Below the pieces are notes generated by a model that had not been told where the DNA came from, searched no databases, and saw nothing but the letters and a program-made list of their open reading frames with translations. A DNA stretch of 35,038 nt from Candidatus Micrarchaeota archaeon (GTDB lineage Archaea; Micrarchaeota; Micrarchaeia; Anstonellales; Bilamarchaeaceae), in assembly GCA_040754495.1 (NCBI GenBank), contig JBFMCO010000065.1, positions 1 through 35,038 of the forward strand, given 5' to 3'. Each line of letters starts with the position of its first letter. The first letter of the stretch is position 1. The position numbers and the translations under genes are program-made. Shown here piece by piece: positions 21,972 through 27,916 of this stretch.

Positions 21972-22667
21972 ATGACGACGCTCGATCGCGCGATAATCGC
22001 ATCTTACGAGAAGGATGGGAAGAGGTTCGAGCTTTACGTGGACCCGGACGCGGCGTACGCCTTCATCGAGAAGAGGAAGCCGGACGTGAAGAACATCCTC
22101 GTGGCCGAGGAGATTTATGCCGACGCGAAGAAAGGCGAGAAGGCGAAGGCCTCCGACGTCCAGAAGGTGTTCGGCACCACCGACGTTGTTGTGATACTCG
22201 AGTTCGTCCTGAGGAACGGGGAGGTCCAGCTCACGACCGAACAGAGGCGGAAGAAAGTAGAGGAGAGGAGGAAGCAGATAATCGCCATACTGCTCCGCGA
22301 GGCCATAGACCCGAGGACGAAGGCGCCGCACACCCAGATAAGGCTCGAGCAGGCGATGGAGCAGGCGAACATCCATGTGGACCCCTTCAAGGACCCCCGT
22401 GAGCAGCTCGAGGACGTAGTGAAGGCATTGCGGCCCCTCCTTCCGATGAAATTCGAGAAGGTGAAGATTGCGGTGAAGGTGCCGGCACCTTTCGCGCACA
22501 AGTGCTACGGGACGCTGAAGAACTACGGCATAGAGAGGGAGCAGTGGCTCAACAACGGGGACCTTGTCGTAGTGGTGGAGATTTTCGGCGGCCTGCAGGG
22601 CGAGTTCTACGACAAACTGAACAAGCTCACGACCGGGCAGGTCGAGACGAAGATTCTCCCGGGCTGA
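21972..22667 (+). CDS. sdo1: ribosome maturation factor SBDS/Sdo1
   Basis: KRFELYVDP, IYADAKKGEKA, GEVQLTTEQRR and IDPRTKAPHT. Confidence 0.96.
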   Translation: MTTLDRAIIASYEKDGKRFELYVDPDAAYAFIEKRKPDVKNILVAEEIYADAKKGEKAKASDVQKVFGTTDVVVILEFVLRNGEVQLTTEQRRKKVEERRKQIIAILLREAIDPRTKAPHTQIRLEQAMEQANIHVDPFKDPREQLEDVVKALRPLLPMKFEKVKIAVKVPAPFAHKCYGTLKNYGIEREQWLNNGDLVVVVEIFGGLQGEFYDKLNKLTTGQVETKILPG

Positions 22668-22670
22668 GAT

Positions 22671-22952
22671 TCACTGATTGCCGGATACTTCGAGCGCGGC
22701 CGCCTCTCCCGAGAGCCTGAGATATATTTCCTCGCTCAGGGCCTTGTCCTCGCCCTCCAGGAAAGCGTACAGACCCGGCTCGGAGCTGCGCATCTTCGAG
22801 AAGAATTCCTTTTTCTCCCGGAGGATTCTCATCGCCTCGGCCCGGCTTGCTGTCCTCAGCTTCTGCATCCATCTGACGTATTTGGAGATGGCTTCGCGGT
22901 AGGGCGCGGAATTGACGAGCTTTGCCAGCCGTTCGCCGAATTCAGACGCCAT
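22671..22952 (-). CDS. small helical hypothetical protein (93 aa)
   Basis: Start set at ATG 22952 (MASEFGERL) with GGAGGT upstream, overlapping the protease stop. Confidence 0.7.
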   Translation of the reverse strand: MASEFGERLAKLVNSAPYREAISKYVRWMQKLRTASRAEAMRILREKKEFFSKMRSSEPGLYAFLEGEDKALSEEIYLRLSGEAAALEVSGNQ

Positions 22953-24105
22953 GCGCAAGACCTCCCTGCTGCTCCATCCTGGCCCTCGCCCCGCTGACAA
23001 TCGGGTCCTGGTCCCATGTCGAATGGTCGATTCCCTGCGCATCCATGCGCCCGACTATGTAGGAAAGCGCCTCGGCCGCCCCGCGCTTGCCCATGAGCGT
23101 ATCGAAACTCCCTGCGCCAAGCTGCGAGTCCAGCCGCGTGCGCACTTCCGTGAAATCGCCCGTGAAATACGCGGTGCGGAGCACGGCCTCGCCGCCCTCG
23201 CCGAGCAGCTGCTGGAGATAGAAGCTGGTGGTCGTTTCGGCCGGGTAATTCACAGAACGGGGCCCGAGTCCGCGCGAGCGGATTTCCTGCTGCGTGATGA
23301 GCTCTGTCAGGCCCTCGTGGGCCATCCACCCCATCCGCTGGTCGCAGGAGTAGAGGTTCCCGTCGTCCCCCCTCCAGCGCATATCGGCCCCGCCGCCGAG
23401 CCAGGCAGCGTAATGCAGCTGCTCGTGGAGCAGGATGTGCCGTGATTCGCCTTCCCCGTATCCGAGAAGGGCGTCCTGGCCGCTGATGATGATTGCGTTA
23501 GCCCCTGGCAGGAACGCCCCGGGCGAGCCGAGCATCTGGAGGGAAACGAACAGCTCCTCGCCGCGTATGTCCTCGCCATGGTGCATGACCGCTACGACAG
23601 GCGGCGCGCCGGAAACCCGCTCCGCGAGGTCCGCCCCGGCGATGGATGGCAGCCAGTTCTGGCATATGTCGGCTGACAGCTCCCCGAGCGTCGCATCTTC
23701 CAGCGGCCCGAGGTAGGGGATGGCTGAGTAGTCGTCTTCGGAAATGACGCGCTCCGGCCCCGCATGCCCTTCGGCCATGCGCGACCATTCCTCTTCGCTG
23801 ATGGCAGAAACAGGCCCCTGCGCAATCCTGCCCCTCGTGGCGCGGAGCATGGACTGCCACCTCTCCCCCTGCAGTTGCCCCAAAGACCCGGGCCGGCTCC
23901 CGCCCCGCGAATCATCCTGCGGGAGCGACTCCTTGACCGTAGCGGCGTAGGTTATCAGCCCCATCAGGGCATTTTCCGCGGCACGCAGCGACCTCTCGAG
24001 GAGCACTGGCAAAGTAAGCCTCGGAACCGGGGATTGCGACTCCTCGCGGTGCTGGGGCAAAGGATTGGCAGTCTTCCTTCCCATTTCGGCCTCGGCGCCC
24101 CCCAT
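22942..24105 (-). CDS. putative zinc metallopeptidase (HExxH, gluzincin-like)
   Basis: ILLHEQLHYAA followed by HEGLTELIT (candidate third ligand Glu). Confidence 0.8.
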   Translation of the reverse strand: MGGAEAEMGRKTANPLPQHREESQSPVPRLTLPVLLERSLRAAENALMGLITYAATVKESLPQDDSRGGSRPGSLGQLQGERWQSMLRATRGRIAQGPVSAISEEEWSRMAEGHAGPERVISEDDYSAIPYLGPLEDATLGELSADICQNWLPSIAGADLAERVSGAPPVVAVMHHGEDIRGEELFVSLQMLGSPGAFLPGANAIIISGQDALLGYGEGESRHILLHEQLHYAAWLGGGADMRWRGDDGNLYSCDQRMGWMAHEGLTELITQQEIRSRGLGPRSVNYPAETTTSFYLQQLLGEGGEAVLRTAYFTGDFTEVRTRLDSQLGAGSFDTLMGKRGAAEALSYIVGRMDAQGIDHSTWDQDPIVSGARARMEQQGGLAHGV

Positions 24106-24290: not shown

Positions 24291-24962
24291 ATGGAAAAAC
24301 GGGTGATATTGCCAGGCGAGAAGATAGCCGACGGCAGGATAAACGCCCCGAACACCTTTTACGATGGCGGCGCGACTTACGCAGCCGTAATCGGCATGGT
24401 GGACGACGAGGGCAGGTACATACCGCTTGAGAATCGGTACCGGCCGGTAGTAGGGGACGTGGTCGTGGGTAGCGTAGTGGACGTGCGCCATGCGGGCTAC
24501 GAAGTGGACCTGAACCTCCCGCAGGGCGGATTCATACCGACGAGAGACGTCCGGCTCACGCTCCAGCGTGGCGACTTCGTGATATGCAAGATAAAGTCGG
24601 TAACCGAGGTCGGCGACGTGGACCTCGGCGAGGTGAGGCGCCTGCCCAAGGGGAAGATAATAGAGTTCCCCTCTGCGAAAGTCCCGAGGCTGATTGGAAA
24701 GAAGAGCAGCATGATAACCCTGCTCAACAACTACACAGGCGGGGACATCATGGTCGGGAACAACGGCTATGTCTGGATGAGCGAGAAGAGCGACATGCCC
24801 CTGCTCCTCCGGGCCATAAAGATGATAGAGAGGAAGGCCCACAAGTCCGGCCTCACGGACGAGATGGCGGCTTTCCTCAGGAAGGAAACCGGCGACAGGC
24901 CGGTCCAGGCGCCCCAGAGGGAAGAGGGCGGAGAGGAAGGTGAAGGATATGGCAGACAGTAG
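24291..24962 (+). CDS. rrp4: exosome complex RNA-binding protein Rrp4
   Basis: VILPGEKI, YRPVVGDVVVG (S1), KVPRLIGKKSSM (KH) and IMVGNNGYVW. Confidence 0.95.
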   Translation: MEKRVILPGEKIADGRINAPNTFYDGGATYAAVIGMVDDEGRYIPLENRYRPVVGDVVVGSVVDVRHAGYEVDLNLPQGGFIPTRDVRLTLQRGDFVICKIKSVTEVGDVDLGEVRRLPKGKIIEFPSAKVPRLIGKKSSMITLLNNYTGGDIMVGNNGYVWMSEKSDMPLLLRAIKMIERKAHKSGLTDEMAAFLRKETGDRPVQAPQREEGGEEGEGYGRQ

Positions 24963-26526: not shown

Positions 26527-26569
26527 TTTGATGAAACTTTATCTGGCGTGCAATAGGAGGAAAGTTTCA
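26523..26569 (+). repeat. 47-bp palindromic dispersed element, copy A (overlaps rpl37ae start)
   Basis: GAAGTTT-GAT-GAAACTTTA-N15-GAGGAAAGTTTCA(TG). Confidence 0.8.
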
Positions 26570-26805
26570 TGCAGACTGCAAAATTCGGCGCTTCAAACAG
26601 GAAGCTGGTCGACAAGGCCATAAAATCCAAGAAGGCCAGGTACGAGTGCCCCAAATGCCACAAGCTCAAGGTCACGCGCAAGGCAACGGCGCTCTGGGCA
26701 TGCAAGGCGTGCGACGCCAGGTTCGCGGGCGCAGCCTACTCGTTGCGGAGCGAGGCGGGCGAGATATCCGCGCGCGTAATCAGCGAGTACACCAAGTCGT
26801 CTTGA
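26569..26805 (+). CDS. rpl37ae: 50S ribosomal protein L37Ae (eL43)
   Basis: KFGASNRK, YECPKC...WACKAC..FAGAAY, in conserved position after rrp42. Confidence 0.93.
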   Translation: MQTAKFGASNRKLVDKAIKSKKARYECPKCHKLKVTRKATALWACKACDARFAGAAYSLRSEAGEISARVISEYTKSS

Positions 26806-26864: not shown

Positions 26865-26911
26865 GAAGTTTGATGAACCTTTAACCGGAGTTTATGCGGA
26901 GGAAAGGTTCA
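26865..26911 (+). repeat. 47-bp palindromic dispersed element, copy B (overlaps rpoP start)
   Basis: GAAGTTT-GAT-GAACCTTTA-N15-GAGGAAAGGTTCA(TG). Confidence 0.8.
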
Positions 26912-27042
26912 TGGGAGATTACAAGGACCCTAAGACCGGCGTATCGGTCGCAGTAGGGGAGAAATTCGCTTTCCCCACCACCGGGGCCAAGATACTGCTC
27001 AAGGCCAGGCCGCCGGTTGCCAAGGAAGTAAGCACGGATTAG
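26911..27042 (+). CDS. rpoP: DNA-directed RNA polymerase subunit P (Rpo12), cysteine-free variant; absent from the ORF track
   Basis: Hand translation MGDYKDPKTGVSVAVGEKFAFPTTGAKILLKARPPVAKEVSTD. KILLKARPP matches the Rpo12 C-terminal motif and the gene sits in the rpoP slot between rpl37ae and Brix. Confidence 0.85.
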   Translation: MGDYKDPKTGVSVAVGEKFAFPTTGAKILLKARPPVAKEVSTD

Positions 27043-27044
27043 GG

Positions 27045-27314
27045 ATGATAACCACCAGCAGGTACGCGTCTCCGGCCACACGGCTGCTTGCCAGGACGAT
27101 GGCTAGGAAAGCCGGGGAGCGCTATGTCGCGAGGGGCAAGAAGACGATAGCGCAGCTGGCGGATGAGGCCCGCAGGGCGGGCGACGATTCGATAAGCGTG
27201 GTTGAGGAGCGCGGGGGAAAGGCGGCAGTTCTCGCGCGGATAACCGTTGATGAGAGGGGCCGGTGGGCCTGGGCTGAGGAAAGGCTTTTGAACACAACGG
27301 AGAAAGAACAGTAG
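27045..27314 (+). CDS. short Brix-domain protein (Imp4-like)
   Basis: ITTSRYAS..TR.LAR...ARGKKTI and synteny in the exosome operon. Confidence 0.8.
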   Translation: MITTSRYASPATRLLARTMARKAGERYVARGKKTIAQLADEARRAGDDSISVVEERGGKAAVLARITVDERGRWAWAEERLLNTTEKEQ

Positions 27315-27321
27315 GTTTTCC

Positions 27322-27552
27322 ATGAAGGCCAGGTGCTCGATTGAGGTGCGGTTCCCGGACGGGAAACGCGCCGAAGCCGCCATGAAGGCGGTATCGCACG
27401 AAGGCGGTGTCGGAAGCCGCTCCGGGACGATTATCAGCCGTGAGGGCGGGATTCTCCGGATGGACGTGGATGCGGAAGACGTCGTGGCCATGAGGGCCGC
27501 GCTGAACGCGTACCTTCGCGCCCTGCAGGCCTTCGAGGCCATAGAGGATTGA
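27322..27552 (+). CDS. pcc1: KEOPS complex subunit Pcc1
   Basis: LRMDVDAEDVVAMRAALNAYLRAL, with conserved synteny. Confidence 0.88.
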   Translation: MKARCSIEVRFPDGKRAEAAMKAVSHEGGVGSRSGTIISREGGILRMDVDAEDVVAMRAALNAYLRALQAFEAIED

Positions 27553-27562
27553 GAGGTGCTTT

Positions 27563-27916
27563 ATGAAGAAGGAACAGGAGGACTTGAACAAGGAGCTCAT
27601 CGAATACGAGAACATGGAGAAACAGCTCGAGGTGCTGCTCATACAGAAGCACCAGCTCCAGATACAGCTGAACGAGGTAAAGCACGCTCTCGACGAGCTG
27701 AGGAAATCGAAGGGAGAGGTGTACCGCTCCGTAGGCTCAATACTGCTCCATACGACCAAGGAGGTAGCCGAGGCGGACCTGAAGGAGAGGAACGAACTCA
27801 TAGAGGTCAAGTTGAACGCCATCTCCAAGCAGGAGGAGAAGCTCCGCGCAACAGTGATGGACACCCAGAAGAAGCTCCAGGAGAGAATGAGAGGGTATGC
27901 CAAAGGAGGCCAGTGA
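27563..27916 (+). CDS. pfdB: prefoldin subunit beta
   Basis: Coiled coil - ALDEL..GEVYRSVGSILL - coiled coil. Confidence 0.93.
   Translation: MKKEQEDLNKELIEYENMEKQLEVLLIQKHQLQIQLNEVKHALDELRKSKGEVYRSVGSILLHTTKEVAEADLKERNELIEVKLNAISKQEEKLRATVMDTQKKLQERMRGYAKGGQ

What the first reader, a model, noticed from the sequence alone, without database searches (positions are those of the whole stretch)
26911..27042. Uncalled RNA polymerase subunit Rpo12 that has lost all four zinc-ligand cysteines
Seen: the 43-aa ORF reads YKDPKTG and AFPTTG where Rpo12/RPB12 has the two CxxCG knuckles (YxCxxCG, xCPxCG), yet keeps KILLKARPP and the operon position. Established: Rpo12/RPB12 is a C4 zinc ribbon involved in polymerase assembly and open-complex formation. 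Inference: a zinc-independent variant, analogous to C-minus ribosomal protein paralogs. Neighbouring L37Ae and Csl4 keep their cysteines, so this is not a genome-wide loss.
Basis: partly seen in the sequence, partly recalled or inferred. Interest (0 to 1): 0.7.

Follow-up and report, generated by a model that had tools for sequence, protein, structure and literature searches.

The report
Zinc-free RNA polymerase subunit Rpo12
This groundwater archaeon, and every sampled member of its clade of about 117 Micrarchaeota species, has as its only copy of the smallest RNA polymerase subunit (Rpo12/RpoP) a conserved form with all four zinc-binding cysteines replaced, so this otherwise universal zinc site appears dispensable in nature.

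Summary
The 43-aa ORF at 26911-27042 (+) is real and has a GGAGG ribosome-binding site. It lies in the canonical slot rrp4-rrp41-rrp42-rpl37ae-[rpoP]-brix-pcc1-pfdB.

It is homologous to the four-cysteine (C4) Rpo12 of sister families (hhalign 98.4%, E 4.7e-15). Its profile's best solved-structure match is RNAP subunit P (4qiw_P).

The four ligand positions read Asp6, Thr9, Phe21 and Thr24. These replacements are nearly fixed in 139 relatives, none of which has a Cys at a ligand position.

In 176 species genomes of the order, no C4 Rpo12 was found in family f1 (0/98) or f9 (0/19). Nearly all genomes of the other ten families have one. A tree of the linked genes puts all Cys-less genomes on one side of a single branch (SH-aLRT 100), which fits one loss. 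In a 301-genome phylum sample, only f1 and f9 lack the cysteines.

Both halves of the peptide are under purifying selection. Some lineages have eroded the N-terminal half but kept the tail. This matches published in vitro data that a C-terminal 17-aa peptide of P suffices.

Zinc independence and RNAP binding are inferred, not shown.

Two reader details are wrong. The ORF is already called in public data, sometimes as RpoP, and the upstream gene is Rrp4, not Csl4.

The scan has already reported this variant from other Micrarchaeota genomes.

The parts
26911..27042 (+). rpoP/rpo12 coding sequence (43 codons plus TAG stop): Cys-less Rpo12 ortholog
   Evidence: ORF; hhalign against C4 orthologs 98.4%, E 4.7e-15; profile hit to 4qiw_P subunit P; conserved in 95/98 f1 genomes
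26911..26985 (+). Residues 1-25, the former zinc-ribbon half. Ligand positions are now Asp6, Thr9, Phe21, Thr24. The knuckle residues Gly10, Pro22 and Gly25 are kept.
   Evidence: hhalign column mapping. Frequencies in 139 sequences: D 123, T/S 136, F 130, T/S 137. pN/pS 0.31 with saturated pS.
26986..27039 (+). Residues 26-43, the conserved basic C-terminal tail (A-K-I-L-L-K-x-R-P-P-x-A-K-E-V-S-T-D). It corresponds to the part of P that suffices in vitro.
   Evidence: Alignments A1 and A2; pN/pS 0.19; the weak NCBIfam RpoP hits map to residues 15-41; Reich et al. 2009, PMC2680338
26898..26902 (+). Shine-Dalgarno-like GGAGG, 8 nt upstream of the ATG
   Evidence: Sequence; similar GGAGG/GGTG motifs upstream of orthologs
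26873..26912 (+). 10-bp perfect inverted repeat (ATGAACCTTT ... AAAGGTTCAT) enclosing the SD and the first two bases of the start codon. A sister copy lies at the rpl37ae start (26531-26570).
   Evidence: Sequence. Found upstream of rpoP only in the window and its two closest relatives. Function not tested.
26569..26805 (+). rpl37ae (eL43), the upstream operon partner; keeps CxxC...CxxC
   Evidence: Pfam PF01780, E 2.1e-19; sequence
27045..27314 (+). Short (89 aa) Brix/IMP4-like 'rRNA maturation protein' gene, the downstream operon partner
   Evidence: NCBIfam NF002093, E 1.9e-7, N-terminal 60 aa only and below cutoff; no Pfam hit

Best explanation
The ORF is this organism's only Rpo12/RpoP, the smallest RNA polymerase subunit. 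It descends from a normal C4 zinc-ribbon Rpo12.

In the common ancestor of two families of this Micrarchaeota order (f1 and f9 here; relatives carry the names Ca. Bilamarchaeum and Bilamarchaeaceae) all four zinc ligands were replaced. The changes were Cys1 to Asp, Cys2 to Thr/Ser, Cys3 to Phe and Cys4 to Thr/Ser. The replacement set then became fixed.

Inferred mechanism:
- The subunit still docks between Rpo3 and Rpo2 and supports open-complex formation through its unchanged basic C-terminal tail. In vitro, that tail alone is enough.
- The N-terminal half persists as a metal-free beta-hairpin module. Phe21 fills the space of the former metal site. Asp, Thr and Ser side chains replace the sulfur-to-backbone hydrogen bonds of the two knuckles.
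- The module is helpful but not essential, because some lineages have since eroded it down to about 35 aa.

Shown: homology, synteny, sole copy, loss of all ligands, clade-wide fixation and purifying selection.
Inferred: absence of metal, the fold of the N-terminal half, and incorporation into RNAP.
For: Existence and signals.

Homology:
- hhalign of 25 Cys-less against 14 C4 orthologs gives 98.4%, E 4.7e-15 over 41 columns.
- The profile's best PDB hits are 4qiw_P (E 7.9e-4) and Rpo12 36ro_P.
- The only NCBIfam hits are four RpoP equivalogs.

Synteny: rrp4-rrp41-rrp42-rpl37ae-rpoP-brix-pcc1-pfdB is kept across the order. This matches the published rpl37Ae-rpoP operon (PMC10450193).

Sole copy: PF03604 is over its cut-off in 0 genomes of f1 (98) and f9 (19), against 52 of 59 in the other families. 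In the rest of the phylum sample, every family that lacked a hit proved to carry a C4 copy when examined.

Single event: one branch with SH-aLRT 100 separates 21 C4 from 29 Cys-less genomes.

Constraint:
- pS is saturated at 0.78 while pN is 0.20. pN/pS is 0.31 for the N-terminal half and 0.19 for the tail.
- The replacement residues are nearly fixed. There are 6 Cys in 139 sequences, none at a ligand position.

Functional plausibility: the 17-aa C-terminal peptide of P. furiosus P restores open-complex formation and about 80% of single-round activity (PMC2680338).

Not a general loss of zinc sites: L37Ae and Rpo10 keep their Cys.
Against: - There is no direct evidence of expression, RNAP association or metal content.
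- AlphaFold2 models are of low confidence (pLDDT 64 and 58), so the metal-free fold is not established.
- Pfam PF03604 does not recognise any of the 25 tested members.
- In P. furiosus a Cys27/30-to-Ser mutant of P was strongly impaired (14% activity). Simple ligand loss is therefore harmful in a canonical background. Compensating changes must be assumed here and were not identified.
Confidence: 0.75

Rival explanations
1. Tail-only subunit. After zinc loss the N-terminal half no longer folds and is a dispensable, disordered leader. Only the C-terminal 18 or so residues act on the polymerase.
For: - Low pLDDT in both AlphaFold2 runs.
- Several lineages have shortened or scrambled the N-terminal half while keeping the tail: G003, genus g24 at 35 aa, P0133/P0136/P0143 and genus g44.
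- The C-terminal peptide suffices in vitro.
Against: In most of the clade the N-terminal half is strongly conserved, including the four replacement residues and the knuckle Gly and Pro. Counts out of 139: Y4 139, D6 123, G10 131, F21 130, P22 133, G25 137. pN/pS is 0.31 with saturated synonymous sites. A disordered, functionless leader would not hold such a pattern.
Confidence: 0.15
2. The peptide is no longer an RNAP subunit. It is either a decaying remnant or has been recruited to another role, and the polymerase of this clade works without Rpo12.
For: The family-defining zinc site is gone. Pfam does not recognise the peptide. Delta-P RNAP assembles and elongates in vitro.
Against: - The peptide is conserved as an intact ORF of constant length in at least 108 sampled species genomes (95 f1, 13 f9), plus diverged copies in genus g44.
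- It is under purifying selection.
- Its most conserved part is exactly the tail that acts on RNAP in vitro.
- It keeps the operon slot and translation signals.
Confidence: 0.05
3. The site still binds a metal, through non-cysteine ligands (Asp6 plus hydroxyls or backbone) or through ligands donated by Rpo2 or Rpo3.
For: Asp is nearly invariant at the Cys1 position: 123 of 139, and Glu in 7 more.
Against: - Cys3 is replaced by Phe, which cannot coordinate a metal, and Thr/Ser are poor zinc ligands.
- His is almost absent, 8 in 139 sequences.
- Own Rpo3 has a single Cys.
Confidence: 0.04
4. A canonical C4 Rpo12 exists elsewhere and was missed because the genome is only 80% complete.
For: Genome completeness is 80%.
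Against: There is no PF03604 hit over the cut-off in any of 117 clade genomes, many at least 90% complete. In contrast, 52 of 59 genomes of the sister families have one. Sub-threshold hits lie inside long unrelated ORFs of 111-426 aa.
Confidence: 0.01

Closest known systems
Archaeal RNAP subunit P / Rpo12 (eukaryotic Rpb12/ABC10-alpha; Pfam PF03604 Zn_ribbon_RPAB4; NCBIfam PRK00398 models; PDB 4qiw_P)
   Same: Same length (43 aa). Same operon slot after rpl37ae. Same knuckle Gly and Pro spacing. Same basic tail G-x-K/R-I-L-x-K-x-R-P. Profile-profile homology 98.4%.
   Different: All four CX2C...CX2C zinc ligands are gone (D/T/F/T instead). The conserved Arg before Cys3 is also gone. The peptide falls below the Pfam and NCBIfam thresholds.
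C+/C- forms of zinc-ribbon ribosomal proteins (Makarova, Ponomarev and Koonin 2001; cited from my own knowledge, not read here)
   Same: Evolutionary loss of the Cys ligands of a small zinc ribbon while the protein keeps its place in a large complex.
   Different: Ribosomal C- forms usually coexist with, or alternate with, C+ paralogs and are linked to zinc-limitation regulation. Here there is no paralog: the Cys-less form is the sole copy, fixed in a whole clade by one event.
Engineered P. furiosus subunit P variants (Reich et al. 2009, PMC2680338)
   Same: The 17-aa C-terminal peptide lacking all four Cys supports open-complex formation and transcription. The natural 35-aa forms in some lineages approach this minimal design.
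   Different: The laboratory Cys27/30-to-Ser mutant was badly impaired (14% activity). The natural variant uses a different, fixed replacement set that includes a hydrophobic Phe at Cys3.

Membership tests
Rpo12/RpoP/Rpb12 (PF03604, COG1996) | Detectable sequence homology to family members | tested here: met
   hhalign A1 against A2 gives 98.4%, E 4.7e-15. The profile hits 4qiw_P at E 7.9e-4. The only NCBIfam hits are RpoP models, at E 0.008-0.18.
Rpo12/RpoP/Rpb12 (PF03604, COG1996) | CX2C...CX2C zinc-ribbon ligands | tested here: not met
   0 of 4 ligands are present; the positions read D6, T9, F21, T24. For this reason it is filed as a descendant variant, not as a zinc-ribbon member.
Rpo12/RpoP/Rpb12 (PF03604, COG1996) | Score above the Pfam gathering threshold | tested here: not met
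   No PF03604 hit at E <= 10 for the window ORF or any of the 25 A1 members. C4 orthologs of sister families score 24-44 bits.
Rpo12/RpoP/Rpb12 (PF03604, COG1996) | Conserved basic C-terminal tail (functional core in vitro) | tested here: met
   K27, K31, R33, P34 and P35 are each conserved in at least 128 of 139 sequences; alignment with the C4 tail; PMC2680338.
Rpo12/RpoP/Rpb12 (PF03604, COG1996) | Gene position rpl37ae-rpoP-IMP4/brix-pcc1-pfdB | tested here: met
   published operon in PMC10450193.
Rpo12/RpoP/Rpb12 (PF03604, COG1996) | Only candidate for the subunit in the genome | tested here: met
   Own genome; 0 of 117 clade genomes have a C4 copy.
Rpo12/RpoP/Rpb12 (PF03604, COG1996) | Physical incorporation into RNAP (contacts Rpo3 and Rpo2) | not testable with these tools
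   Needs biochemistry or proteomics.
Rpo12/RpoP/Rpb12 (PF03604, COG1996) | Zinc-ribbon three-dimensional fold | tested here: inconclusive
   AlphaFold2 pLDDT 64 and 58, with short strands in ribbon-like positions. No significant structural match.
C-minus zinc-ribbon paralogs (ribosomal protein type) | Coexisting or alternating C+ paralog | tested here: not met
   No C4 copy in any clade genome.

The most novel reading that the evidence does not exclude
A naturally zinc-free Rpo12. A universal RNAP zinc ribbon was converted in one step into a metal-free knuckle module with a fixed Asp/Thr/Phe/Thr core. It then eroded in some lineages towards a tail-only subunit of about 35 aa. This would show in vivo that the zinc site of Rpo12/Rpb12 is dispensable, and it would give a ready-made natural series for mapping what the ribbon actually contributes.
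Probability: 0.5. Interest if true: 0.6.

Novelty: new variant of a known kind. Interest (0 to 1): 0.5.

Why it matters
Rpo12/Rpb12 is shared by the archaeal RNAP and all three eukaryotic nuclear polymerases, and its C4 zinc ribbon is treated as a defining feature.

A whole clade that has lived without the ligands, using a specific conserved replacement set, has three uses:
1. It is a natural counterpart to the in vitro finding that the C-terminal peptide suffices.
2. It provides sequences for testing what the ribbon adds, such as stability, assembly or exchange rate.
3. It shows that HMM-based annotation (Pfam, NCBIfam) silently misses an essential core transcription subunit in these genomes. 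That matters for completeness estimates and for claims of gene loss in DPANN archaea.

I found no paper describing this variant in six literature searches on Rpo12/RpoP/Rpb12 and zinc. A 2026 survey of archaeal small-subunit evolution does not mention zinc or cysteine.

Tried and rejected
- Complex prediction of Rpo3 (alignment A3) with the Cys-less peptide (A1): no verdict. The score was 0.47 against the best control's 0.29, below the required margin. It is not used as evidence either way.
- AlphaFold2 on 25 and on 139 sequences: pLDDT 64 and 58, so the fold is uncertain.
- Foldseek against the PDB: nothing at E <= 0.001.
- VIA-align wide search: best Z 2.7, to cytochrome c oxidase subunit chains. 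This is too weak to use.
- Sequencing runs: no RNA holder is listed. Only DNA runs hold the stretch: two groundwater runs from one study hold about half of its sampled words, and two others (groundwater, wetland) hold small shares. Expression could not be examined and read laying was not run.
- A whole-library search with the Cys-less profile over 1.84 billion representatives returned 25 hits. The 19 small ones (35-146 aa) I retrieved are all Cys-less and resemble the forms seen in this clade, so no second Cys-less lineage was detected. A lineage with different replacements would not be found this way.
- I looked for a correlated architectural change in Rpo3. The short form of about 190 aa occurs in both C4 and Cys-less families, so there is no gross difference.
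- TFS/TFIIS zinc ribbon: 0 of 91 genomes in the order, so its absence is not linked to the Rpo12 change.
- The pseudogene, missed-paralog and chance-ORF readings were rejected on conservation and census data.

Full report
**The ORF and its setting**

The ORF at 26911-27042 (+) encodes 43 residues with no Cys or His. A GGAGG motif (26898-26902) lies 8 nt before the ATG. The surrounding genes are:
- Rrp4 (24291-24962), Rrp41 and Rrp42;
- L37Ae (26569-26805; Pfam E 2e-19);
- the ORF itself;
- an 89-aa Brix/IMP4-like gene (27045-27314; NCBIfam 'rRNA maturation protein', E 1.9e-7, N-terminal part only);
- Pcc1 (27322-27552) and prefoldin beta (27563-27916).

This is the rpl37Ae-rpoP-IMP4-pcc1-pfdB arrangement with upstream exosome genes that has been described for Euryarchaeota and DPANN (PMC10450193). 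The window has 59% G+C. Named relatives are Ca. Micrarchaeota, Ca. Bilamarchaeum and Bilamarchaeaceae. The DNA is held by groundwater metagenome runs.

**Is it Rpo12?**

- Pfam gives no hit for the ORF or for any of 25 relatives.
- Genomes of other families of the same order carry a textbook 43-aa C4 Rpo12 in the same slot. Example motifs are M-Y-V-C-P-K-C-G and V-R-C-P-Y-C-G, followed by S-R-I-L-x-K-K-R-P-P-I-A-K-E-V-S-T-D.
- A profile of 25 Cys-less sequences (A1) matches a profile of 14 C4 sequences (A2) with probability 98.4% and E 4.7e-15 over 41 columns.
- That alignment maps Cys1 to Asp6, Cys2 to Thr9, Cys3 to Phe21 and Cys4 to Thr24. Gly10, Pro22 and Gly25 are retained.
- Against all PDB chains, the A1 profile's best hits are RNAP subunit P of T. 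kodakarensis (4qiw_P, E 7.9e-4) and an Rpo12 chain (36ro_P).
- The only NCBIfam families touched are four 'DNA-directed RNA polymerase subunit P' models. The hits are weak and run through the tail.

**Is there a canonical copy?**

There is none in this genome, which is 1.63 Mb and 80% complete. Results for 176 species genomes of the order, in 12 families:

| Group | PF03604 over cut-off | Cys-less profile match at E <= 0.001 |
|---|---|---|
| Family f1 | 0 of 98 | 95 of 98 |
| Family f9 | 0 of 19 | 13 of 19 |
| Other ten families | 52 of 59 | not separately counted |

- The six f9 genomes without a match belong to one genus (g44) with genomes of 0.5-0.6 Mb. Four of the five g44 genomes examined carry a further diverged 42-49-aa ORF right after rpl37ae, without ligand Cys and ending E-(V/I)-S-T-D; the fifth locus is cut short by its contig end.
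- I fetched 33 further loci from f1 (one or more per genus) and f9, and 22 loci from the other families. Every f1 and f9 sequence lacks the four ligands and every other sequence has them.

**Phylum-wide check**

In a phylum-wide sample of 301 genomes (33 families), some families or genomes other than f1 and f9 gave no Pfam hit. When examined, all of these carried C4 copies that were either sub-threshold or located elsewhere in the genome. Two genomes of that sample (G195, G306) are flagged unpublished. They contribute only two of the 171 over-cut-off counts and no other claim rests on them.

**One event or several?**

I built a maximum-likelihood tree of the linked proteins Rrp4, Rrp41, Rrp42 and L37Ae. 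It used 50 genomes and 797 columns with IQ-TREE quick under LG+C20+F+G4. Six short loci were left out. The tree has a single branch with SH-aLRT 100 that separates all 21 C4 genomes from all 29 Cys-less genomes.

C4 is the state in the rest of the phylum, in other archaea and in eukaryotes. The change is therefore a single loss in the ancestor of f1 plus f9. The tree comes from genes of the same operon and from a quick search, so it describes the history of the locus.

**Selection**

- Among 23 genus-level and 43 family-level coding sequences, synonymous sites are saturated (pS 0.78-0.81) while pN is 0.20-0.26.
- The pN/pS ratio is 0.31-0.38 for residues 2-25 and 0.19-0.24 for the tail. These are upper bounds on dN/dS.
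- In 139 Cys-less sequences the replacement residues are themselves nearly fixed: Asp 123, Thr/Ser 136, Phe 130 and Thr/Ser 137. Y4, G10, P22 and G25 are also nearly fixed.
- There are only six Cys in total, none at a ligand position, and eight His.

This argues against decay. It favours a new structural solution with a hydrophobic residue in place of the metal. That last step is inference.

**Erosion in some lineages**

Several lineages have lost the first knuckle or most N-terminal similarity while keeping the tail. They are G003, genus g24 (35 aa), three 35-36-aa representatives and genus g44. This shows where the indispensable part lies.

**Fit with experiments**

Reich et al. (PMC2680338) reported the following for P. 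furiosus:
- delta-P RNAP cannot form stable open complexes;
- a 17-aa C-terminal peptide lacking all Cys restores footprinting and about 80% of single-round activity;
- a Cys27/30-to-Ser protein is much worse (14%).

So a zinc-free Rpo12 is functionally plausible. However, naive ligand loss is harmful, which fits the highly specific replacement set seen here.

Work in M. maripaludis shows that Rpo12 pairs with Rpo3 and that its dosage is critical (PMC13556214 and PMC10450193).

**What could not be shown**

- Both structure predictions are of low confidence.
- Structure searches are uninformative.
- The complex prediction with Rpo3 gave no verdict.
- No RNA data were found.
- Zinc-free status, fold and RNAP incorporation therefore remain inferences.

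**Not a general loss of zinc sites**

L37Ae next door keeps CxxC...CxxC and Rpo10 keeps CxxC...CC. The TFIIS/TFS-type ribbon is missing from all 91 sampled genomes of the order, whatever their Rpo12 type, so it is unrelated.

- The ORF is not uncalled in public data. The identical protein is in the protein collection, and some relatives are already named RPC12/RpoP by JGI.
- The upstream gene is Rrp4, not Csl4.
- The comparison with C- ribosomal paralogs is imperfect because no C+ partner exists.

**Novelty**

Six searches on Rpo12/RpoP/Rpb12 and zinc found no description of a Cys-less Rpo12 (a seventh search was only for the organism name). A 2026 survey of archaeal small-subunit evolution does not mention zinc or cysteine.

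Within this scan the same variant has already been reported and followed up from other Micrarchaeota genomes. This window is another member of the same clade, and my independent analysis agrees with those reports.

I rate it a new variant of a known kind, of moderate interest.

Noticed in passing
window 26873-26912 and 26531-26570: Two copies of a 10-bp perfect inverted repeat enclose the SD and start codon of rpoP and of rpl37ae. One is ATGAACCTTT/AAAGGTTCAT and the other ATGAAACTTT/AAAGTTTCAT, and they differ by a compensatory C:G versus A:T pair. The rpoP copy sits in a 105-nt spacer found only in the window and its two closest relatives. In other genomes of the genus, rpoP follows rpl37ae within about 25 nt. 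It may be a dosage control, comparable in purpose to the internal terminator before rpoP in M. maripaludis (PMC10450193).
   Followed up: partly
window 27045-27314 (+): The gene after rpoP is an 89-aa protein that matches only the N-terminal 60 or so residues of Brix/IMP4 'rRNA maturation protein' models of about 160 aa. It has no Pfam hit, so it is a half-size Brix-like protein. One public relative (P0134, 146 aa) is a read-through fusion of Cys-less Rpo12 with this protein.
   Followed up: partly
whole order (91 genomes), own genome: No TFIIS/TFS-type zinc ribbon (PF01096) was found in any of 91 sampled genomes of the order, including 50 of high quality. The transcript cleavage factor TFS may be absent or unrecognisable in this order.
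   Followed up: partly
window 24291-24962 (+); own genome: The exosome cap gene in the operon is Rrp4 (S1 and KH domains). No Csl4 (PF10447) was found in the 80%-complete genome.
   Followed up: partly
L107-L111 (genus g44, family f9): Genomes of only 0.5-0.6 Mb carry the most diverged Rpo12 descendants (42-49 aa) directly after rpl37ae. These are recognisable mainly by the terminal E-(V/I)-S-T-D. They are followed by a secreted or membrane-type protein of about 260-280 aa instead of the Brix-like gene.
   Followed up: no
L112:1288-1989 (own genome, contig C56): Rpo3/RpoD is a short form with a core of about 190 aa, a single Cys and a Lys/Glu-rich C-terminal extension of about 45 aa. The short core is shared by C4 and Cys-less families.
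   Followed up: partly
window 22942-24105 (-): A minus-strand gene of 387 aa lies between SBDS (21972-22667; Pfam) and rrp4, interrupting the usual gene order.
   Followed up: no
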